Shown: positions 1-63,095, counted from the stretch's first letter. The stretch: DNA of 64,000 nucleotides from Escherichia coli (GCF_003991155.1 NZ_CP031297.1); one strand, 5' to 3'. Notes: generated by a model not told the origin, from the letters alone. A program made the numbers and translations.

Positions 1-400
1 TTTCCATCCAGTGAATGGCGTTGATGCCAGAACCACAGCAGGGCTCATAAAAGTCTGCCGAAGACTGTGAGCCAACAATGAGTGACATCAAGCGGCCAAT
101 CTCTGGAGGAGTGGGGAAGTAATTGGTGCCCTTCTTGTGGAAGCCAGACATGCTTAGGACGTAACCCAAAACATCGCTGGTGGGGTCGCGCTTAATGGCG
201 GCAGACAGGACGTGAGAGAGCTCGAAGGCGACCGGCTGAAGTTCTTCCGGGATCTCCTCCTTGGCTGGGTATAGGCCAGTCTGCAAGTATGCCCACTGGT
301 CAATAAAGGCCTCAACAAACCGAGATGTGCCCATTCTGTATCGGGACTGCTCGATGAGAGATAAAGCCTTGGATGTAAGTTGCTGTGTTTCTGGTGACAT
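1..400 (-). CDS. N6-adenine DNA methyltransferase, N-terminal part (gene continues beyond window start)
   Basis: Minus-strand translation from ATG at 400: MSPETQQL...NYFPTPPEIGRLMSLIVG...FYEPCCGSGINAIHW, matching the (F/Y)xTP and DPxCGSG region of N6 methyltransferases; SD GGAG upstream; not in ORF track because no stop falls in the window. Confidence 0.7.
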   Translation of the reverse strand, partial: MSPETQQLTSKALSLIEQSRYRMGTSRFVEAFIDQWAYLQTGLYPAKEEIPEELQPVAFELSHVLSAAIKRDPTSDVLGYVLSMSGFHKKGTNYFPTPPEIGRLMSLIVGSQSSADFYEPCCGSGINAIHWME

Positions 401-491
401 AAGCGCTCCAGTTTGTTCTGACGAAACATTCAAGAGGTAGAAACGAAGAACCCCGCCGAAGCGAGGTTCTTTGCTTTCCTGCCTGATCGCC

Positions 492-635
492 TTAATGCCG
501 AAGCAAAGACGTCTTGATAAAGTCGGGGCAACCGGACATTTCCCGGTCGATGAAGTCCTGACGTTTCGCCAGCGGCCATTTCATGAACGCCGCGAGCGGG
601 ATGCGCTTATTCGTGTTAGTATTGCCTTGCAGCAT
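492..635 (-). CDS. Small hypothetical protein (47 aa) upstream of the methyltransferase gene
   Basis: ATG at 635 preceded by AAGGAG at 7 nt spacing; MLQGNTNTNKRIPLAAFMKWPLAKRQDFIDREMSGCPDFIKTSLLRH. Confidence 0.3.
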   Translation of the reverse strand: MLQGNTNTNKRIPLAAFMKWPLAKRQDFIDREMSGCPDFIKTSLLRH

Positions 636-771
636 AACAAAGCTCCTTAATTGCTTGATTGTGTTGTAAGGGCTGCAACGAAGGTCGAAGAGCGATGCGG
701 CCCTTATTTATGATTATTACAGCATCATAAAATAATATCAAGAGACAATAAAACGATACCAAGAAACAAAA

Positions 772-787
772 CTTTCACATGTGAAAG
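772..787. promoter_or_regulatory. Perfect 16-bp palindrome CTTTCACATGTGAAAG (copy 1 of 4), putative operator
   Basis: Exact palindrome in an AT-rich divergent intergenic region; identical copies at 18191, 39250 and 54646. Confidence 0.5.
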
Positions 788-847
788 TCTCCCCGCTGTC
801 CACCTCGCACACTCCAAACGCCCAAACGCCCAAATAACTTGTCTATC

Positions 848-875
848 TGCCCAAAATGGGCGCGTAAGCGTCCGA
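848..875 (+). promoter_or_regulatory. Motif B (GCCC-AAAAT-GGGC dyad followed by TAAGCG), copy 1 of 8
   Basis: Recurring dyad/hairpin motif located upstream of plus-strand transcription units. Confidence 0.4.
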
Positions 876-961
876 TAGAAAGTAATTGTTAGTGAGATAT
901 TGACTACACGGAATATGGCTATATCATAGAATCATAAAATGATGCTGTAAAAGTGATATGT

Positions 962-1339
962 ATGCCAAAGCAAGCAAATCATCTCCGTTTGAAGAAACCT
1001 TGCGCCAACTGTCCATTCCGGAAGGAGGGCGCTATCGAGCTGGCCCCTGGGCGATTAGAAGGCATCATCAACGACATCGTTGAAAACGACATGACGACGT
1101 TTCATTGCCACAAGACCGTGCACTCAAAGTCAGGTGGTGAATGGGATGAAGAGGGTAACTATGCACCTTCGGGACAAGAGTCGATGTGTGCCGGTGCTGC
1201 GGCTTACTTGATGAAAATAGGCAGGCCGACAGTGGCTATGCGAATTGCCTTTGCGTTTGGTGATGCAAAGGTGTCCGACTGGGACGAAGCTCAAGAGCTG
1301 GTTGTCGAGCCTTTGGTACAAGGGGACCGAAATGAGTAA
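962..1339 (+). CDS. Hypothetical protein with Cys/His cluster (CANCPF...FHCHKT)
   Basis: ORF 953..1339; first ATG at 962; first gene of plus operon. Confidence 0.65.
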   Translation: MPKQANHLRLKKPCANCPFRKEGAIELAPGRLEGIINDIVENDMTTFHCHKTVHSKSGGEWDEEGNYAPSGQESMCAGAAAYLMKIGRPTVAMRIAFAFGDAKVSDWDEAQELVVEPLVQGDRNE

Positions 1340-1613
1340 GCGATATGCGGTAGTGCCGCATCCGAAACTGAAACGAGAGTACAAAGGTCGGCTGGTCAGA
1401 ACTACTCGGGTACTAAAAAACGGCTGGGGGTTGATCCCTCTAGGGGCTGTGGCAACGGTCACGCATCAGTCTCCCAAGGGATCAGAACTGACCTTTGAAC
1501 CATGCGACTGCTGCGGCCTGAAAGCCATTATCAGTCATGTAAGCATGGACTCCATTGAATTTATCGAACCGATTACTGAGGAAGAAGATGGACGAGAACA
1601 AGCTCAACATTGA
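1332..1613 (+). CDS. Hypothetical protein
   Basis: ATG at 1332 with AAGGGGA upstream, overlaps preceding stop; in-frame part of ORF 1245..1613. Confidence 0.55.
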   Translation: MSKRYAVVPHPKLKREYKGRLVRTTRVLKNGWGLIPLGAVATVTHQSPKGSELTFEPCDCCGLKAIISHVSMDSIEFIEPITEEEDGREQAQH

Positions 1614-2262
1614 AACGGTCGATGGGCACAACGAGCTGGTAGTCAGCTTTTTGTCCAGAATGGTAAGCCTGAGTGACGAGGAAAAGCAGACAGTATTGTC
1701 CTGCCTTCCGGACACCGGCAAACAAACAATCACCCAGCTCTATGAGGCGCTGCGTTCTCAAGGGCACCAGGATCTTGCAGAGAAAGTCGAACCATACCTC
1801 CAGCAGGGGGTGTTTGGGCCGATCTTCGATAACGCCAAGTCCAAGGTGTTCGTTCGGGACGAAGCGCCTTTTTTCCTCATGGATGAAAATCCTTTGAACT
1901 GGGATGACGCTAAAGCATTCAATCGCCTACGTATGAGTACGACCTGTGTTCTTGGCCGTGGCGGCTGGACTATCGGTGAGCGCTTTGATGACCGCTTTGA
2001 TACCGAGGTGGGCGGAACACAGCTTATCGTCACTCAGTCACTCAACGAAAAAGGTGAGATTGAAGGAGGACTTCCTACCTCGATGTCGCTGAATGACTTT
2101 GCTGAGTTCCCTAAACAGCCAAGGCCTCCTCAAATAGTCGATTACCAGGAAGACAAGCGATACACGCTTGAGGAAGCGGAAGCTATCCCTGAGCTCGCAC
2201 CAGTGGTTCAGCGTCTGAAAGAGCGCATCGAAGAGTATGAGGAGAGAAGAGCCCATGATTGA
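1588..2262 (+). CDS. Hypothetical protein
   Basis: ATG at 1588 with GAGGA upstream; ORF track start 1555 is TTG. Confidence 0.75.
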   Translation: MDENKLNIETVDGHNELVVSFLSRMVSLSDEEKQTVLSCLPDTGKQTITQLYEALRSQGHQDLAEKVEPYLQQGVFGPIFDNAKSKVFVRDEAPFFLMDENPLNWDDAKAFNRLRMSTTCVLGRGGWTIGERFDDRFDTEVGGTQLIVTQSLNEKGEIEGGLPTSMSLNDFAEFPKQPRPPQIVDYQEDKRYTLEEAEAIPELAPVVQRLKERIEEYEERRAHD

Positions 2263-2761
2263 CCTGACATGCCGCCTTTGTGCTGGTTCCGGTGTTTATG
2301 ACTTTTCCCCTTCCAAAGAAACCTGCGGTATGTGCCAAGGGCATGGGAAATTTGTTGACGCCAAAGCAATGCTGGTGGCTGCCATCGAGCTGGCAAAGAA
2401 GCAACGCGAGCCTGTCATTGAAGTGGTAATGGGGTTGGTGCTCCAGGGTGTGGATGTTAGAGGGAAGGAGCCTGGAGAGCGGTTCAAGGCTGCTCAGGCC
2501 TTTAACGCCCCAGGGCACAACCTATTACGATACGGGTGGGATGCTTGGGAGCTCTATGCCCTCCATGAGGGTGTAAGTCCAGAACTTGCATCGCTTGGCC
2601 GAAGTGTGATGCGCGAGTGGCATAGCCATTCATGGGGCCGGTTCAGTGGAGAGGTAGGCTTTAACGCCGCCGAGATCATGATCAAACAGGCCAAAGACAA
2701 CCCAGAAAAAGCAGAAGAGCGCTGGGCGTTCCTGCTTAGTGAAGAATGGATGGTGGAGTAA
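2255..2761 (+). CDS. Hypothetical protein with N-terminal zinc-ribbon (CRLCAGSG...CGMCQGHG)
   Basis: ATG at 2255 with GAGGAGAGAAGAG upstream; two CxxCxGxG repeats. Confidence 0.75.
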   Translation: MIDLTCRLCAGSGVYDFSPSKETCGMCQGHGKFVDAKAMLVAAIELAKKQREPVIEVVMGLVLQGVDVRGKEPGERFKAAQAFNAPGHNLLRYGWDAWELYALHEGVSPELASLGRSVMREWHSHSWGRFSGEVGFNAAEIMIKQAKDNPEKAEERWAFLLSEEWMVE

Positions 2762-3078
2762 TTGTCGTGACAGAACAAACCAATAAGAAATTGATGCTGG
2801 ATGAGTCTCCAGATATGCCCCTGCAATTCAAGTGGAGAAAGTTTGGTGGTGCGATTTTTACTGCCACGCAAACAATGGAGCACGTCAAGGAAGGACGTAA
2901 GCTCGGGCCGACTCCAGCAGGGATGCTACCTCAAGAAGTGTGGCTGAACCGCCTGATCGCTATGGAAGAAACCCTGCCACGAGGGAAGTTTTTTGACAGA
3001 TTCCGCCGCCGCGACAAAAACGAGCAGTATGACTTGGCCGCCGATCATCTCCGTCTTGTCGGACAGAAAAAGCGATAG
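2746..3078 (+). CDS. Hypothetical protein (alternative GTG start at 2767 with GGAG SD)
   Basis: ORF 2746..3078 in operon context. Confidence 0.6.
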   Translation: MDGGVIVVTEQTNKKLMLDESPDMPLQFKWRKFGGAIFTATQTMEHVKEGRKLGPTPAGMLPQEVWLNRLIAMEETLPRGKFFDRFRRRDKNEQYDLAADHLRLVGQKKR

Positions 3079-3086
3079 GGGGATAG

Positions 3087-3587
3087 ATGAAAGCCCAGGC
3101 ATACCCACCATCAGTCATTCGTAAAGGCGCTGTGTTGTACGCAGCCCTTTATTACATCTCTGATGATGATAAAGCAAAGGTCGAGGTTACAGAGTGGATA
3201 GTTCGCTCTATTCAGAAACGACGCAACTCAACCAGCGATCAACGCTATGTCAATCTTGCCCAAAAGTTAGATGGGATTACGTGGGGGAAAAGGTCACGGA
3301 AGAATGGGGACTTTGGTTGGTTGCCATCTATACCGAGCTGGTGCTTGAAGCAGTTCCGGGAAGGTGGCGAATTGCCTTTTGGCGTTTATACGACGCGACT
3401 GGCCGCTCTCAAGTTTGCGAAAGTCAGCTTGCAGGAAGAGGTCCAATATTGCGAGGCCGAGCTGAAAAAGGCTCAGACAGAAGAGGATACTCAGGAACTC
3501 CAAGAGGAGCTGGCGGAGAACCAGAGACTTCTGAAAGCTGCTGGAGCAATGGTGAAGCGCGAGCAAAACAAGAAGAAAAGAGGTTGA
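3087..3587 (+). CDS. Hypothetical protein, coiled-coil C-terminus
   Basis: ATG with AGGGGGA SD; ORF 166 aa. Confidence 0.75.
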   Translation: MKAQAYPPSVIRKGAVLYAALYYISDDDKAKVEVTEWIVRSIQKRRNSTSDQRYVNLAQKLDGITWGKRSRKNGDFGWLPSIPSWCLKQFREGGELPFGVYTTRLAALKFAKVSLQEEVQYCEAELKKAQTEEDTQELQEELAENQRLLKAAGAMVKREQNKKKRG

Positions 3588-52551: not shown

Positions 52552-52776
52552 ATGAACGTACAACTTCAAGCCAGCAACAATGTGCTGTTGGCGCAAATCG
52601 AAAGCAAAGGCCTCACTGTTGAAACGCATTGTCGCAGTGGCTTTTGTGGCATGTGCCGGGTTCGTCTACTCGAAGGTCAAGTGGCTTATGACGAGACGCC
52701 CATCGCATTTGTCAAAGAAGGGGAAGTGTTGGTTTGCTGCGCTAAAGCAAAAACCGATGTGACCTTGGAAATTTAA
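52552..52776 (+). CDS. YfaE-like 2Fe-2S ferredoxin
   Basis: 74 aa; C-x4-C-x2-C ... C pattern (HCRSGFCGMCRVRL...VLVCCAK). Confidence 0.8.
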   Translation: MNVQLQASNNVLLAQIESKGLTVETHCRSGFCGMCRVRLLEGQVAYDETPIAFVKEGEVLVCCAKAKTDVTLEI

Positions 52777-59065: not shown

Positions 59066-61519
59066 ATGCAACAAACATTAAACTTTGATCTATCAGAACA
59101 ACCCATCCCAGTGCTTTTGCGTGGGGATAAGTGGGATTCTGTTTGGTCAGAACTGACTGATAACGAGGATTTGAACTTCGTTGATGCCAGTAGAGGAACC
59201 AGTCTGTCATCGTTGATCACGTCATCGGTTGAGTCCATTCACACGGCCTTAATTGATGGGTGGACCATGATGATCGGCTATTCCAGTGGTAAAGATTCTG
59301 AAACGGTCTTGCACCTGTTCCTGATGGCCCTGATCCGGGCTGTAAGGAGTGGGGCGACCATCAGCCAGCACCACTTCATCTTGCACACTGACACACTGAT
59401 CGAAAGCCCAGAGGTAAGGTGGCTGGCGGATCAGAAACTGGCCGAGCTGGAGCGTTTCATTGCGAAGGAAAACCTTCCTCTGACCATCGTTCTAGCAAAG
59501 CCTGGGATCTCGCAGAGTTGGACGGGCCGAATCCTTACTGGGAGGGGGTTGCCTACGTTTTCCAACTCCACGGCCCGCCAGTGTAGCCAGGATTTAAAAA
59601 TCACCTCTGCCAAAAGAGCGAAGGCAGCTTATATGCGAGAGCTTCCCAAAGAGGTTCGACAGAAAGTCTGCCTTTTGCTGGGCAGTCGTGATGCTGAAAG
59701 CACTATTCGTGCGGCCAACATTGCAAAACAGCGAGGAAGCTCAGATCGCGTCATTAAGACGAAAGATGGGGGTGAGCTGTATGTGGTGAAAAACTGGTTG
59801 GCGAGTGATGTCTGGGAGTTCTTACTATCCGCTGGCATGGGCTCAGCATATCCTCTGCCAAGTTACTTGGAGAGCAATGTCACTACGGCAGAGCTTTACA
59901 AGGCGGCAACAGGGGAGTGCGTGTGGTCGGCAACAGAGAAGAAGGCCAGTGACGCCTGTGGCGCTCGCTTCGGTTGCTGGGCTTGCCAGGCTGTTGGGTT
60001 GGATAAGTCAATGGAGACGTTGCTTGCCACGGACCCTGAAAGGCATGGCTATATGTCGGGGCTGAACCGCATCCAGCGCTACTTGGCAAAACGCCGGTAC
60101 GCATGGGAAGACCGCCATCCCGTAGGTCGAACGATTTACGAGGGCGGATACATCAAAATACAGCCGGACGTTTACAGTCCTGTTTTCCTAGAACGATTGC
60201 TTCATGTCTGTTGCAGCATGGACTACATGGAGCAAAAGAGAGCTGATGAGCTGGCATACAAGCTGGCTACTGGTCAAGCAGAGGATAACGACTGGAACCG
60301 TCGAATGGCAGAGCCACAATTCCGGATCATATCGGAAGAGGCTTTAGTCCATATCGACTTCATGTGGGCCTTCCATCATTTCAATGATAAGCCTTTCCAT
60401 GCCCTGGAGATTTACCACAGGGTTTGGTCGATGGGTGATCTGGACTTGCTGGAAGACGAGCCGCAGTGTGAAACCGTTCCTCAGTCACCAATTCCGAAGC
60501 CATTGTGGTTGAAGGTTGGTCGCTGGGGCGATGGTTCGCTTTCTGATGGCTTGGCCGATCCGTTAGCGGAAATGGCTTACTTTGACGGCGGGGATGACCC
60601 GTTGGCAGCGCAAGTGATCAATACCGCAGACGGAAAGAGAAGGGTGGTTTGCTTCGCAGAAGATGATGAAGTGAAAGTCGATCCCGACTCCGCTGCGTTC
60701 ATCATCTGGAACGAATACCCGCGACTAAGGGAGTCTGTACTAAAGGGACATTATACGCCCGGTAGTGCAGCGCAGTTCTACCTTCGGTTCGGAGCAATCC
60801 AGCTTGCGAAAGGAAAAGGCGCTTTGTATCACCGTATGATGCAAAGAGGTCAAACCTACCACCAGATGGGCCTTACAGGGCTACAGACGATGGAAGGAAT
60901 CCAACAGCGCAAGGATGTCAAAGTGCTTAGCGATGCTAAGTACAAAGATCTGGTGAAGCGAAAAATCAAGGGAAGACTGGCAACGGTACGCTGGTGGGTC
61001 AACTTGCACTTAACGTTCAAGTACCATCTGCACCACCGTACTCCGACGGGGTTGTTCATCGAGAAGCAACTTGACCAGGAAGCAATGGAAGAACAGAAAC
61101 GGCATCAGGAGCGATGGTTTAACTACGTGACTGACGCGATGCTTTGTTACTCCAGCGCATTCTGTATGAGCGTCATGGAAGGGCGAGAGGGGAGCGGAAA
61201 CGCCAACATTCGTCGTTACATGGCCGCGACCAGAAGGAAGGCTTATACGGCCCTCTGCGAGCTCTTGGACAATACTGACGCCCAGTGGATGAATGATGTG
61301 GTCCAGAGTGCCGTAGGGCAGTATGAGGCGATACAGGCAGCCCTAACCGAAGGTTCCGCGCTTGCTATCTATCTCGACTGGATCAACCTACTGTCAAAAC
61401 GCCATCCAGCCTCTTTGGAGCGACATGTCAGAACGATGATCAAGGCGGTTCAACGCTTACATCGCCGCGACGACACAGAGTTGCAAAGAGGACAGCAAGG
61501 CTTGTCCTTGGCCGCATAA
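59066..61519 (+). CDS. PP-loop ATP pyrophosphatase family protein (PAPS reductase/DndC-like N-domain) with long C-terminal extension
   Basis: 817 aa; PP-loop IGYSSGKDS; Cys cluster CGARFGCWAC; AGGAGG SD. Confidence 0.85.
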   Translation: MQQTLNFDLSEQPIPVLLRGDKWDSVWSELTDNEDLNFVDASRGTSLSSLITSSVESIHTALIDGWTMMIGYSSGKDSETVLHLFLMALIRAVRSGATISQHHFILHTDTLIESPEVRWLADQKLAELERFIAKENLPLTIVLAKPGISQSWTGRILTGRGLPTFSNSTARQCSQDLKITSAKRAKAAYMRELPKEVRQKVCLLLGSRDAESTIRAANIAKQRGSSDRVIKTKDGGELYVVKNWLASDVWEFLLSAGMGSAYPLPSYLESNVTTAELYKAATGECVWSATEKKASDACGARFGCWACQAVGLDKSMETLLATDPERHGYMSGLNRIQRYLAKRRYAWEDRHPVGRTIYEGGYIKIQPDVYSPVFLERLLHVCCSMDYMEQKRADELAYKLATGQAEDNDWNRRMAEPQFRIISEEALVHIDFMWAFHHFNDKPFHALEIYHRVWSMGDLDLLEDEPQCETVPQSPIPKPLWLKVGRWGDGSLSDGLADPLAEMAYFDGGDDPLAAQVINTADGKRRVVCFAEDDEVKVDPDSAAFIIWNEYPRLRESVLKGHYTPGSAAQFYLRFGAIQLAKGKGALYHRMMQRGQTYHQMGLTGLQTMEGIQQRKDVKVLSDAKYKDLVKRKIKGRLATVRWWVNLHLTFKYHLHHRTPTGLFIEKQLDQEAMEEQKRHQERWFNYVTDAMLCYSSAFCMSVMEGREGSGNANIRRYMAATRRKAYTALCELLDNTDAQWMNDVVQSAVGQYEAIQAALTEGSALAIYLDWINLLSKRHPASLERHVRTMIKAVQRLHRRDDTELQRGQQGLSLAA

Positions 61520-61520
61520 A

Positions 61521-61550
61521 AAGCCCTCCTTCGGGAGGGCTTTTTCTTTT
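61521..61550 (+). terminator. Intrinsic terminator (AGCCCTCC-ttcg-GGAGGGCT + T-run)
   Basis: Perfect hairpin + TTTTTCTTTT. Confidence 0.75.
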
Positions 61551-61580
61551 GCACCCCAAAAGGGCAATTACAGCGTTTTA
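61547..61580 (+). promoter_or_regulatory. Motif B (GCACCCC-AAAA-GGGC ... TTACAGCG), copy 8
   Basis: Immediately after terminator. Confidence 0.4.
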
Positions 61581-61599
61581 CCCTTTTAGGTGGCTGTCA

Positions 61600-61657
61600 T
61601 ACTCTTTGTTCATTGTCAGCGCTTGCTGGCTATAACGGTAGCTGGCCCAAAACAGCA
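61600..61657 (+). promoter_or_regulatory. Leader element C, copy 7 (divergent)
   Basis: GGTAGCTGGCCCAAAACAGCA. Confidence 0.35.
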
Positions 61658-61720
61658 ATAACCTAACCCCTCGGGAGGAAACCCCTCCTGGGTTCTCTCC
61701 CACAAACAAAGGAGAGAAGC

Positions 61721-61924
61721 ATGAGCCTAGACAAGTTAAGTCGGCTGGTGGACCAACAACGAAAGATCCAGGATGAAATCGACAATGAAATCATTCTGGC
61801 CGTCAAAGAGGTGTTGGCTACAAACTCAGTCGGTTTAGCCCGTGAGCTTGTTGGGGGTGTCCCGCAAGATCATCCATTCCATCCGTTTTTACTCGCTATA
61901 GCTAAGCAGCTTGACCCGAGATAA
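61721..61924 (+). CDS. Small hypothetical protein (67 aa)
   Basis: AAGGAGAGAAG SD. Confidence 0.65.
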   Translation: MSLDKLSRLVDQQRKIQDEIDNEIILAVKEVLATNSVGLARELVGGVPQDHPFHPFLLAIAKQLDPR

Positions 61925-61995
61925 CTAAGTAACCCAACCGGGTACACCAAGGCCCGGTCGGCTTTGGTGTACCTCCAACCAATTTTGGAGGCACT

Positions 61996-62601
61996 ATGTC
62001 TAATTCAAATTTCGGCTTTCTAGCTCTGGCCTTGCGCCAACGCCTGATCAAACGCTGGTCACTGATGCACTCTGTTCAACCGGAGTCTGTGTTGGAACAC
62101 AGCGCTGTTGTTACCCTGCTTTCCTACCTGGCTGGCAATATTGCCATTCAGCAAGGGAAGTCGGTGGATCTGGCAGTCATGCTTGCTCATGCTTCGTTGC
62201 ATGATGCAGCCGAGGTTCTCTGTTCGGATGTTGTAACACCGGTCAAGAAAGCAAACGCTGTTTTGCAGCGTGAGTTTGAACGACTGGAAAAGGCCGCAGA
62301 GGACAAACTCATCCAGACTCTTCCCGAAGAACTCCAGGATGCAGTCGCCATAGCCTTCGCTCCCGGTGGCTATGAACAATCACTGGTTAAGGCCTGTGAT
62401 ACCTACTCCGCTTACATCAAGTGCAAACTTGAGGTGGCCGCAGGTAATGGCCTTGAGTTCCAGGATGCTCTCAGCAAAATGGAACGTGTTGTTGCTCAGG
62501 TGAAATCGGACTTCCCGGAAATCGACGCTCTGGACAAATGGTTTGGTAACGGACTCGGCCATTCAGTAGATAAACTGCTGGCAGGGGGTAACGATGACTA
62601 A
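61996..62601 (+). CDS. HD-domain 5'-deoxynucleotidase, YfbR-like
   Basis: Aligns along its length with E. coli YfbR as recalled: RWSLM...SVLEHS...SLHDAAEVL...TPVKK...LVKACDTYSAYIKC. Confidence 0.85.
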   Translation: MSNSNFGFLALALRQRLIKRWSLMHSVQPESVLEHSAVVTLLSYLAGNIAIQQGKSVDLAVMLAHASLHDAAEVLCSDVVTPVKKANAVLQREFERLEKAAEDKLIQTLPEELQDAVAIAFAPGGYEQSLVKACDTYSAYIKCKLEVAAGNGLEFQDALSKMERVVAQVKSDFPEIDALDKWFGNGLGHSVDKLLAGGNDD

Positions 62602-62863
62602 TCCAATCCCTGGCGACATCAAGATTAAGGACTTTGGCCGCGACCGGAAATTCCGTTCGGTTGATGAGCTTCAAAGCACTTTGTCAGAACAGTACAAAGG
62701 TCAGCATGTCAGCATCGTTTACCCTGCAAAGCCCAGCGGTTTACTCCGCACGGTTTTTGTCAGTGTCGATGATGCTGGTGGCGTGAATCGAACCTATGGG
62801 GACCAGTCTCCTGTCGATTTTTCTGCCATCAAAGATGACCTGTATGTACCAAGTGACCTGTAG
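62594..62863 (+). CDS. Hypothetical protein
   Basis: GGGGGTAA SD; overlaps preceding stop. Confidence 0.65.
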   Translation: MTNPIPGDIKIKDFGRDRKFRSVDELQSTLSEQYKGQHVSIVYPAKPSGLLRTVFVSVDDAGGVNRTYGDQSPVDFSAIKDDLYVPSDL

Positions 62864-62876
62864 GAGAGCACTAGCT

Positions 62877-63095
62877 ATGGTGGTGATCATCGTAAACACA
62901 GGACACTATGAGTTTATCGGCCTTGGTGAGACCCACGGACAAGCCACAGAAGGGCTTTTGAAACGCTGGGACGAACACTGCGAACGTAATCCGGATGCTG
63001 AGTCTGGTTACATGCAGGAGCTGATAGAAGAAGGAAGCGCACAAGTTGTCGAGATGGAGCCCGGCTCCGCCGTAATTTACGGACTTGACGGCTAA
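62877..63095 (+). CDS. Small hypothetical protein (72 aa)
   Basis: ATG at 62877 with AGGAGA SD. Confidence 0.5.
   Translation: MVVIIVNTGHYEFIGLGETHGQATEGLLKRWDEHCERNPDAESGYMQELIEEGSAQVVEMEPGSAVIYGLDG

What the first reader, a model, noticed from the sequence alone, without database searches (positions are those of the whole stretch)
61996..62601. YfbR-like HD-domain 5'-deoxynucleotidase on the element
The product aligns along its whole length with E. coli YfbR as I recall it, including the metal ligands (EHS, HD, and the ACD/QAD position). A dNMP phosphatase is not part of conjugation or DNA methylation machinery. It may process nucleotides produced by host defence or by the neighbouring PP-loop enzyme, or adjust dNTP pools.
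Basis: partly seen in the sequence, partly recalled or inferred. Interest (0 to 1): 0.55.

Follow-up and report, generated by a model that had tools for sequence, protein, structure and literature searches.

The report
Plasmid copy of YfbR deoxynucleotidase
The gene is a real and almost certainly active 5'-deoxynucleotidase of the YfbR family on the backbone of IncC resistance plasmids, where public annotation already names it yfbR and published data show it is switched on with the conjugation genes, but its role for the plasmid is untested.

Summary
ORF 61996..62601 (+, 201 aa) matches Pfam YfbR-like (E 1e-37) and passes NCBIfam's YfbR equivalog cut-off. It keeps all eight catalytic and substrate residues of E. 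coli YfbR, and its model superposes on PDB 2PAQ at 1.5 Å.

It is not new. The window is IncC plasmid backbone, and the gene is pVCR94 vcrx115 (WP_000071870.1), annotated yfbR in hundreds of plasmid records.

- It lies in the vcrx114-119 operon, behind its own AcaCD (master conjugation activator) box at 61547-61575. Published RNA-seq gives expression 50 without AcaCD and 6412 with it.
- An intrinsic terminator separates it from the neighbouring DndC-like enzyme. A Vibrio sister plasmid keeps yfbR intact while that enzyme has decayed, so the proposed coupling is unlikely.
- Related MOBH elements keep it under purifying selection. Three of five compared also carry a YfaE-like ferredoxin (a ribonucleotide reductase maintenance protein), adjacent to it in one element.

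Most likely it is a captured housekeeping dNMP phosphatase that adjusts deoxynucleotide pools during transfer or establishment. An anti-defence role has a precedent in phage T5 Dmp but is untested. Interest is low to moderate.

The parts
61520..61551 (+). Intrinsic terminator directly after the stop codon of the DndC-like gene vcrx113. It has a GCCCUCC/GGAGGGC stem, a UUCG loop and a U-tract.
   Evidence: Read from the sequence. The fold has dG -20.4 kcal/mol and z -4.2. The sub-threshold Rfam hits here are caused by this hairpin.
61547..61575 (+). AcaCD-binding box of the vcrx114 promoter. The core CCCCAAAAGGGCAATTACAG lies at 61554-61573.
   Evidence: Carraro 2014 Table S3 places a motif at pVCR94 86650-86678 (p 3e-12) under a ChIP-exo peak. 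The coordinate offset of -25103 is fixed by vcrx114/vcrx115. The motif CCCNAAANGGGCANNNNCAG occurs 7 times on the + strand against 0.62 expected, and this copy is the only perfect match.
61598..61612 (+). -10 element CATACT (61598-61603) and the transcription start site at 61610-61612.
   Evidence: The 5'-RACE start site is at pVCR94 86713-86715, mapped with the same offset. The -10 element is read from the sequence. No sigma-70 -35/-10 pair was found by the consensus scan, which is consistent with an activator-dependent promoter.
61721..61924 (+). vcrx114, a 67-aa protein of unknown function and the first gene of the operon. Its Shine-Dalgarno sequence is paired in a 5'UTR hairpin.
   Evidence: ORF. 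No family hit in NCBIfam, PADLOC or PHROGs. The 5'UTR fold has dG -42.3 and z -4.0. Operon assignment vcrx114-vcrx119.
61941..61993 (+). Two intercistronic hairpins. The second pairs CCUCCAA with UUGGAGG, which is the Shine-Dalgarno sequence of yfbR.
   Evidence: The fold of 61925-61998 has dG -33.1 and z -3.7. A regulatory role is inferred.
61996..62601 (+). yfbR-like gene (pVCR94 vcrx115, WP_000071870.1). It encodes a 201-aa HD-domain 5'-deoxynucleotidase.
   Evidence: Family, residue and structure evidence. Annotated yfbR in plasmid records. Published RNA-seq expression values are WT 1178, ΔacaCD 50 and AcaCD-induced 6412.
62594..62863 (+). vcrx116, an 89-aa protein of unknown function. Its start overlaps the yfbR stop (ATGACTAA), which suggests translational coupling.
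   Evidence: No family hit. It is not a conserved neighbour of yfbR elsewhere.
62877..63095 (+). vcrx117, a 72-aa protein of unknown function in the same operon.
   Evidence: RefSeq CDS in L001 mapped to the window. No family hit. AcaCD-dependent.
63169..63726 (+). vcrx118, a 185-aa protein of unknown function in the same operon. The operon continues to vcrx119, beyond the end of the window.
52552..52776 (+). YfaE-like 2Fe-2S ferredoxin (vcrx101) in the AcaCD-activated operon vcrx098-103. I propose it as a functional companion in deoxynucleotide supply; this link is inferred, not shown.
   Evidence: NCBIfam NF007985 YfaE, 93.3 bits against a cut-off of 75. Annotated yfaE. AcaCD-dependent: 1 rising to 3151. 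Homologues exist in L002 and in L009, where it directly follows yfbR.
59066..61519 (+). vcrx113, the 817-aa DndC-like 'PAPS reductase' upstream. It is a neighbour in a separate transcription unit and not part of the yfbR unit.
   Evidence: PADLOC DndC E 1.4e-41 over residues 53-464. PHROG PAPS reductase. No Pfam hit. Terminator after its stop. Decayed in L002.

Best explanation
The gene encodes an active, metal-dependent 5'-deoxyribonucleotidase (dNMP to deoxynucleoside plus phosphate) of the YfbR family. An ancestor of the IncC/pAQU/MOBH plasmid group took it from a chromosomal yfbR lineage of marine Gammaproteobacteria. On IncC plasmids it is the second gene of the vcrx114-119 operon. That operon is silent without the master activator AcaCD and strongly induced with the transfer genes.

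Most likely it adjusts the deoxynucleotide pool around conjugative DNA synthesis, in the donor or in the new transconjugant. It could do so by draining or rebalancing dNMPs, for instance by feeding the dCMP -> dC -> dU -> dUMP route to thymidylate as E. coli YfbR does. The plasmid's YfaE-like ferredoxin, which would sustain ribonucleotide reductase, may act alongside it.

Shown: family membership by sequence and model, active-site conservation, promoter and regulon membership, purifying selection, and independence from the DndC-like neighbour. Inferred: enzyme activity, substrate range, and the physiological role.
For: Identity:
- Pfam PF12917, E 1e-37.
- NCBIfam equivalog above its cut-off.
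- PDB YfbR, E 1.6e-26.
- All of R18, W19, H33, H68, D69, E72, D77 and D137 are conserved and invariant in 43 homologues. PMC8177086 reports that substituting R18, W19, D77 or a metal ligand inactivates YfbR.
- The model matches 2PAQ at rmsd 1.5 Å.

Origin:
- The protein is 57% identical to Ferrimonas chromosomal YfbR, which sits next to alaA as in E. coli. The two AlaA proteins are 70% identical.

Regulation:
- ChIP-exo peak, AcaCD motif, 5'-RACE start site and RNA-seq in pVCR94.
- The motif was confirmed in the window.

Selection and conservation:
- dN/dS is 0.11-0.20 against the 95-97% identical Photorhabdus and Edwardsiella copies. Against pAQU-type copies pN is 0.135 and pS is 0.77.
- The gene is present in divergent MOBH/MPF_F elements.

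Nucleotide-pool link:
- The YfaE-like ferredoxin is AcaCD-regulated on the same plasmid, present in L002, and immediately downstream of yfbR in L009.
- The known role of E. coli YfbR in the deoxycytidine pathway to thymidylate is described in PMC8475336.
Against: - No enzymology or mutant phenotype exists for the plasmid protein. I found no paper that discusses vcrx115.
- The NCBIfam score clears the cut-off by only 6.5 bits, and identity to the characterised enzyme is 36%, so substrate range could differ.
- H65 is invariant in all ten non-E. coli sequences of alignment A1, and C134, next to the metal ligand D135, is conserved in at least 90% of sequences. E. coli YfbR has neither.
- The YfaE link is co-occurrence in 3 of 5 element types examined, not a universal pairing. 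YfaE-like genes also occur on many plasmids that lack yfbR.
- A dNMP-destroying enzyme does not obviously help a plasmid that needs dNTPs.
Confidence: 0.55

Rival explanations
1. It is an anti-defence factor. By removing dNMPs early after entry it would starve nucleotide-derived immune signalling, as phage T5 Dmp removes dAMP and so blocks dITP synthesis and the Kongming system. It might otherwise blunt defences that act through the deoxynucleotide pool.
For: T5 Dmp, a 5'-dNMP phosphatase expressed from the first DNA to enter the cell, is a proven anti-Kongming factor that acts through its catalytic activity. The neighbouring AcaCD-controlled hde operon of IncC acts in the recipient against restriction and CRISPR. 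yfbR sits in the same accessory gene block as the hde homologues in L009.
Against: In the cited study Kongming is triggered by phage deoxynucleotide kinases, and none is annotated in the IncC stretches I examined. The TnSeq screen into V. cholerae found only vcrx089-093 to be differentially required. There is no hit to PADLOC, though that library covers defence rather than anti-defence. T5 Dmp shows no detectable sequence similarity (BLASTP E 9.5, no Pfam domain), so the precedent is an analogy only.
Confidence: 0.13
2. It is not a monophosphatase. It would be a dNTP or dNDP (tri)phosphohydrolase like DatZ or OxsA, lowering one or all dNTPs.
For: It matches PHROG 7076 'dATP triphosphohydrolase' at E 5e-17. 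OxsA is the second-best sequence and structure match. OxsA shows that this scaffold can remove phosphates stepwise from a triphosphate. Clade-specific conserved residues lie beside the metal site.
Against: The matches to YfbR are far stronger: E 1e-37 and 1.6e-26 against 1e-12 for OxsA and 1.6e-3 for DatZ. All the residues that define deoxyribose-monophosphate recognition in YfbR are kept. The closest chromosomal relatives are syntenic yfbR orthologues.
Confidence: 0.1
3. It works with the neighbouring DNA-modification genes (the DndC-like PP-loop enzyme vcrx113 and dcm1). It would clear modified nucleotides such as 5-methyl-dCMP or thio-nucleotides, or process their products.
For: The genes are close on IncC, and all are AcaCD-dependent in RNA-seq. 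A fragment of the DndC-like gene lies just upstream of yfbR in L002, so the adjacency is old.
Against: A terminator and an independent promoter separate the genes. In L002, dcm1 and the DndC-like gene are reduced to fragments covering 14% and 7% of their length, while yfbR stays intact and conserved. L003, L008 and L009 carry yfbR with neither gene nearby. PMC8177086 reports that YfbR makes no significant contacts with the base.
Confidence: 0.07
4. It is a passenger. It would be a captured housekeeping gene with no plasmid-specific role, retained by linkage.
For: No phenotype has been reported. Hosts already have their own yfbR.
Against: It shows purifying selection and an invariant active site across elements whose synonymous sites are saturated. 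It is retained in a compact element that lacks many other IncC accessory genes in the region fetched. It has a dedicated activator-dependent promoter and high induced expression.
Confidence: 0.1
5. It benefits the host as a phage defence. It would divert dNMPs released from degraded host DNA away from phages that salvage them.
For: notes that T4 and T7 recycle nucleotides from host DNA, and that overexpressing a dNMP phosphatase perturbs DNA metabolism.
Against: There is no PADLOC match. Expression is tied to the conjugation activator rather than to infection. No data exist.
Confidence: 0.05

Closest known systems
E. coli YfbR (b2291; dCMP phosphohydrolase / 5'-deoxynucleotidase; PDB 2PAQ, 2PAR, 2PAU)
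   Same: Same Pfam and NCBIfam family and nearly the same length (201 vs 199 aa). Same H...HD...D metal site, E72 equivalent, and R18/W19/D77 deoxyribose-recognition residues. The predicted fold superposes at 1.5 Å.
   Different: Only 36% identical. It is plasmid-borne, not next to alaA, and under the conjugation activator AcaCD rather than housekeeping control. It has conserved H65 and C134 near the metal site that E. coli lacks. Its activity is untested.
Chromosomal YfbR of Ferrimonas (alaA-yfbR locus)
   Same: The closest chromosomal relatives I found, at 55-57% identity, with the same active site.
   Different: They sit in a housekeeping context. Oddly, they are only 30% identical to E. 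coli YfbR although the adjacent AlaA proteins are 70% identical.
Phage T5 Dmp (deoxynucleoside-5'-monophosphatase, pre-early gene T5.001)
   Same: Same reaction (dNMP to deoxynucleoside), carried by a mobile element, and expressed at the start of invasion. It has a proven effect on host nucleotide pools and on the Kongming defence.
   Different: No detectable sequence similarity: BLASTP E 9.5 and no Pfam domain in Dmp. It is a functional analogue only. T5 also encodes the nuclease that produces the dNMPs and the kinase that triggers Kongming.
DatZ (cyanophage S-2L dATP triphosphohydrolase) and OxsA (plasmid-borne oxetanocin phosphohydrolase)
   Same: Same HD-domain subfamily and fold, and both are carried on mobile elements. 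OxsA E 1.4e-12 and TM 0.81; DatZ E 1.6e-3 and TM 0.65. PHROG 7076 E 5e-17.
   Different: Both are much more distant than YfbR. They act on triphosphates or a nucleoside analogue within dedicated pathways (Z-genome synthesis, antibiotic biosynthesis) that are absent here.

Membership tests
YfbR-like 5'-deoxynucleotidase (Pfam PF12917 / NCBIfam NF003009) | Significant full-length match to the family profile, above the curated cut-off | tested here: met
   PF12917 E 9.7e-38 over residues 8-177. NF003009 scores 128.5 bits against a cut-off of 122, a narrow pass.
YfbR-like 5'-deoxynucleotidase (Pfam PF12917 / NCBIfam NF003009) | Mononuclear metal site H33...H68 D69...D137 | tested here: met
   H35, H69, D70 and D135 align to these residues and are invariant in 43 homologues. 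The ligands are as listed in PMC8177086.
YfbR-like 5'-deoxynucleotidase (Pfam PF12917 / NCBIfam NF003009) | Deoxyribose-monophosphate specificity residues R18, W19 and D77, plus E72 | tested here: met
   R20, W21, D78 and E73 are present and invariant. The roles of R18, W19 and D77 are from PMC8177086. The PDB entries 2PAR and 2PAU are E72A mutants.
YfbR-like 5'-deoxynucleotidase (Pfam PF12917 / NCBIfam NF003009) | All-helical HD-domain fold of YfbR | tested here: met
   The AlphaFold model has pLDDT 94.7. Its best PDB match is 2PAQ, with TM 0.80/0.91 and rmsd 1.5 Å.
YfbR-like 5'-deoxynucleotidase (Pfam PF12917 / NCBIfam NF003009) | Co2+/Mn2+-dependent hydrolysis of 2'-deoxyribonucleoside 5'-monophosphates but not ribonucleotides; dimeric | not testable with these tools
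   This needs purified protein. No publication on the plasmid protein was found.
AcaCD regulon of IncC plasmids | AcaCD-binding motif at class II distance upstream of the transcription start site | tested here: met
   A perfect core motif lies at 61554-61573, one of 7 + strand hits against 0.62 expected. It lies 35-37 nt upstream of the mapped start site.
AcaCD regulon of IncC plasmids | AcaCD occupancy and AcaCD-dependent transcription | not testable with these tools
   Taken from the literature for pVCR94: ChIP-exo peak height 6039, and vcrx115 expression 50 (ΔacaCD) against 6412 (induced). The promoter was also cloned as a reporter in PMC8373056.
T5 Dmp-type phage dNMP phosphatase (anti-Kongming) | Sequence homology to T5 Dmp | tested here: not met
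   BLASTP E 9.5. Dmp has no Pfam domain. This is an analogy of reaction only.
DatZ/OxsA-type HD (tri)phosphohydrolases | Closer to these than to YfbR in sequence or structure | tested here: not met
   OxsA E 1.4e-12 and DatZ E 1.6e-3, against YfbR E 1.6e-26. Foldseek ranks YfbR first.
Known anti-phage defence proteins (PADLOC-DB) | Match to any defence-system profile | tested here: not met
   No family at E <= 0.01.

The most novel reading that the evidence does not exclude
The AcaCD-induced YfbR-type dNMP phosphatase, possibly with the plasmid's YfaE-like ferredoxin, is an establishment or anti-defence module. On this reading it rewires the recipient's deoxynucleotide pool on entry: it removes dNMP precursors of nucleotide-derived immune signals, or offsets dNTP-targeting defences, while ribonucleotide reductase activity is sustained. 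That would make it the plasmid counterpart of phage T5 Dmp, arrived at from an unrelated protein fold.
Probability: 0.12. Interest if true: 0.6.

Novelty: already known. Interest (0 to 1): 0.22.

Why it matters
IncC plasmids are major carriers of multidrug resistance, including blaNDM, and most of their backbone genes have no assigned role. This one has a confident biochemical prediction and tight co-regulation with conjugation. A YfaE-like ferredoxin, a second gene of deoxynucleotide metabolism, recurs with it. Together these point to plasmid control of the host's DNA precursor supply during transfer, which has hardly been studied for plasmids. The recent finding that a phage dNMP phosphatase defeats a nucleotide-signalling defence makes the gene a cheap and well-defined candidate to test. 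As a sequence observation, however, it adds nothing to existing annotation.

Tried and rejected
- **Homology to T5 Dmp:** none (BLASTP E 9.5; Dmp has no Pfam domain). The weak PHROG 318/8467 hits are not evidence of relatedness to T5 Dmp itself.
- **Defence-system membership:** no PADLOC hit for YfbR or the small neighbouring ORFs.
- **A conserved protein partner next to yfbR:** vcrx116 overlaps the yfbR stop codon, but its only homologues, in L003 and L004, are not adjacent to yfbR. vcrx114 has no homologues in the compared loci.
- **Coupling to the DndC-like enzyme:** rejected on the terminator, the separate promoter, and the decay of that gene in L002.
- **An RNA family in the leader:** only sub-threshold Rfam hits, caused by the terminator hairpin.
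- **Leading-region placement:** this cannot be decided. oriT lies next to mobI, outside the window, and the nic site and transfer polarity of IncA/C plasmids were not determined.
- **Literature searches:** searches for yfbR with IncC and for vcrx115 returned nothing specific, and the search for the TraDIS study of pMS6198A returned nothing. The per-gene TnSeq table of Roy et al. 2020 is not held.
- **Genome scan:** the genome-contig scan with the single protein returned only 6 close loci. The chromosomal-versus-mobile distribution therefore rests on a handful of contexts.
- **Pfam on vcrx113:** no result at all, despite clear DndC and PAPS-reductase hits in PADLOC and PHROGs.

Full report
**1. 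What is there**

It has a GGAGG Shine-Dalgarno sequence four bases before the ATG.
- It matches Pfam PF12917 'YfbR-like' at E 9.7e-38.
- It matches the NCBIfam equivalog model for 5'-deoxynucleotidase at 128.5 bits, against a curated cut-off of 122.
- It matches the crystal-structure sequences of E. coli YfbR at E 1.6e-26.
- OxsA (E 1.4e-12) and DatZ (E 1.6e-3) are much more distant.

**2. Active site**

A review of HD-domain enzymes (PMC8177086) gives the residues that matter in YfbR. H33, H68, D69 and D137 bind the metal. R18, W19 and D77 give specificity for deoxyribose. Mutating any of these inactivates the enzyme.

Aligned with E. coli YfbR taken from MG1655, the plasmid protein has R20, W21, H35, H69, D70, E73, D78 and D135 at the corresponding positions. 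All eight are invariant in an alignment of 43 homologues. An AlphaFold model built on that alignment is confident (pLDDT 94.7). Its best match among solved structures is YfbR 2PAQ (TM 0.80/0.91, rmsd 1.5 Å), followed by OxsA.

**3. Where the window comes from, and whether this is new**

The 6 kb around the gene is at least 99% identical to 720 plasmid records in PLSDB. These are mostly conjugative IncC plasmids of Klebsiella, Escherichia, Salmonella, Providencia and Vibrio.
- In those records the gene is already annotated 'yfbR: 5'-deoxynucleotidase' (WP_000071870.1).
- In the model plasmid pVCR94 it is vcrx115, at 87099-87704.

So the sequence observation is already public annotation. I found no paper that discusses the gene's function.

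**4. Regulation**

Carraro et al. [quoted passage not shown]
- Their Table S3 lists a ChIP-exo peak, an AcaCD motif at pVCR94 86650-86678 (p 3e-12), a 5'-RACE start at 86713-86715, and the predicted operon vcrx114-vcrx119.
- Their Dataset S1 gives vcrx115 expression of 1178 in the wild type, 50 in ΔacaCD and 6412 with AcaCD induced. The other operon genes behave alike.

With the offset fixed by the gene coordinates, the box is at window 61547-61575 and the start site at 61610-61612.

I checked this in the window. The motif CCCNAAANGGGCANNNNCAG occurs seven times, all on the + strand, against 0.62 expected by chance. The copy at 61554-61573 is the only perfect one. The spacing of the seven hits matches the published boxes of vcrx068, traV, vcrx076, traN, vcrx087, vcrx098 and vcrx114. 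No sigma-70 -35/-10 pair was found by the consensus scan, as expected for an activator-dependent promoter. The gene is thus not part of the transfer machinery, but it is part of the transfer regulon.

**5. Relation to the neighbouring PP-loop enzyme**

The 817-aa protein upstream (vcrx113) is DndC-like (PADLOC E 1.4e-41). Pfam finds nothing in it. Several observations argue against coupling with yfbR.
- Its stop codon is followed at once by a strong intrinsic terminator at 61520-61551 (dG -20.4 kcal/mol, z -4.2). The AcaCD box of the yfbR operon starts within the terminator's U-tract. The two genes are therefore separate transcription units, although both are AcaCD-dependent in RNA-seq.
- In a pAQU-type Vibrio plasmid (L002), yfbR is intact at 79% identity. 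The DndC-like gene and dcm1 survive there only as fragments covering 7% and 14% of their lengths.
- Three other element types (L003/L004, L008, L009) carry yfbR with neither gene nearby.

The suggested functional coupling is therefore unlikely.

**6. Conservation and origin**

The protein has homologues at 45-90% identity in many contigs. Those I inspected are mobile elements of the same broad kind.
- L003 carries VWA/CobT and primase genes.
- L008 carries a Rep3 replicon.
- L009 carries homologues of the IncC hde genes (CbbQ-type ATPase, RecT, YqaJ), DUF3150, VWA, a primase and TraF/H/G.

Selection is purifying. dN/dS is 0.11-0.20 against the 95-97% identical Photorhabdus and Edwardsiella copies. 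Against the pAQU-type copy, pN is 0.135 with pS 0.77, so synonymous sites are saturated.

The closest chromosomal relatives I found are in Ferrimonas, at 55-57% identity. There the gene follows alaA exactly as in E. coli, and the two AlaA proteins are 70% identical. The plasmid gene therefore looks like a captured housekeeping yfbR of a marine gammaproteobacterial type, only 36% identical to the enterobacterial enzyme.

**7. A recurring companion**

The same plasmid carries a 74-76-aa 2Fe-2S ferredoxin at 52552-52776 (vcrx101). It passes the NCBIfam equivalog for YfaE, the protein that maintains the class Ia ribonucleotide reductase cofactor (93.3 bits against a cut-off of 75). It too is AcaCD-dependent, rising from 1 to 3151. 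A homologue is present in L002, and in L009 it lies directly downstream of yfbR.

Two deoxynucleotide-metabolism genes under the conjugation activator suggest that the element manages DNA precursor supply during transfer or establishment. This is an inference. The pairing is seen in three of five element types, and YfaE-like genes also occur on many plasmids without yfbR.

**8. Mechanism**

The best-supported reading is an active dNMP phosphatase induced with conjugation that drains or rebalances dNMPs. E. coli YfbR feeds the dCMP -> deoxycytidine route to thymidylate (PMC8475336), and the plasmid enzyme could do the same during the burst of conjugative DNA synthesis.

The anti-defence reading has a real precedent. 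T5 Dmp is a dNMP phosphatase made from the first DNA to enter the cell. It removes dAMP and so prevents dITP signalling by the Kongming system, and it perturbs host nucleotide balance. Three things weaken the parallel:
- Dmp shows no detectable sequence similarity to YfbR.
- The only TnSeq screen for defence evasion by pVCR94 singled out vcrx089-093.

A triphosphohydrolase activity like that of DatZ or OxsA cannot be excluded by sequence alone, but it is less likely given the conserved YfbR specificity residues.

**9. Verdict**

It is already annotated, and its regulation is already in published supplementary data.

- independence from the DndC-like neighbour;
- the link to the AcaCD promoter in the window;
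- evidence of selection across related elements;
- the likely chromosomal origin;
- the recurring YfaE-like companion.

The function for the plasmid remains untested. Interest is low to moderate. It would rise if the gene proved to be an establishment or anti-defence factor.

Noticed in passing
window 52552-52776 (+): A YfaE-like 2Fe-2S ferredoxin (class I ribonucleotide reductase maintenance protein; NCBIfam 93.3 bits against a cut-off of 75) sits on the plasmid backbone. It is AcaCD-dependent (vcrx101). Homologues lie in L002 and directly after yfbR in L009. tblastn finds YfaE-like genes on about 1,500 plasmids, including about 840 at under 60% identity, many of them large Klebsiella plasmids.
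   Followed up: partly
window 61551/61552; L001 15553-17469: In other IncC plasmids the vcrx113-vcrx114 spacer is an insertion hot spot for IS3, IS4 and IS66 elements and a group II intron. In L001 a 1917-bp group II intron (ltrA) is inserted exactly after the terminator U-tract. That point is at the 5' edge of the 29-nt AcaCD motif, and the motif core stays next to the promoter.
   Followed up: partly
window 61610-61720 and 61925-61998 (+): Both leaders fold better than shuffled controls (z -4.0 and -3.7). In each, a hairpin pairs the Shine-Dalgarno sequence, of vcrx114 (GGAGAGA) and of yfbR (GGAGG) respectively. Roy et al. describe a similar RBS-sequestering structure for vcrx089. This may be a shared layer of translational control in AcaCD operons.
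   Followed up: no
L002 9001-9840, 8304-8642 and 4403-4648: The pAQU-type Vibrio plasmid YfbR is 279 aa, with an 80-aa C-terminal extension that is not obviously similar by eye to vcrx116. Upstream lie pseudogene remnants of the DndC-like gene and of dcm1. A tusA sulfurtransferase gene is annotated nearby.
   Followed up: partly
window 59066-61519 (+): vcrx113 is DndC-like over residues 53-464 (PADLOC E 1.4e-41) but has no Pfam hit at all. It carries a C-terminal half of about 350 aa with no match. It is an orphan DndC-like enzyme without DndA, DndD or DndE partners nearby.
   Followed up: no
L005 10001-10600 vs L007 5863-6462: Ferrimonas chromosomal YfbR, next to alaA, is 57% identical to the plasmid protein but only 30% identical to E. 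coli YfbR. The adjacent AlaA proteins are 70% identical. Either yfbR evolves much faster than alaA, or the Ferrimonas copy was replaced in place by the plasmid-type gene.
   Followed up: no
window 61996-62601, residues H65 and C134: H65 lies one helical turn before the metal ligand H69 and is invariant in all ten non-E. coli sequences of alignment A1. C134 lies next to the metal ligand D135 and is conserved in at least 90% of sequences. E. coli YfbR has L and A at these positions, so metal preference or substrate range might differ.
   Followed up: no
window 18257, 22146, 23206, 35885, 40504, 50153 and 61554 (+): Seven copies of the AcaCD core motif are present, against 0.62 expected by chance. 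All are on the + strand. Their spacing matches the published boxes of vcrx068, traV, vcrx076, traN, vcrx087, vcrx098 and vcrx114.
   Followed up: yes
phage records H63-H65: Distant homologues (25-28% identity) occur in Yersinia phage YerA41, its relative vB_Yru_GN1, and Cobetia phage Carin-5. From my own knowledge, YerA41 DNA is reported to be heavily modified. This may point to HD phosphohydrolases of this subfamily in phage nucleotide-modification pathways.
   Followed up: no
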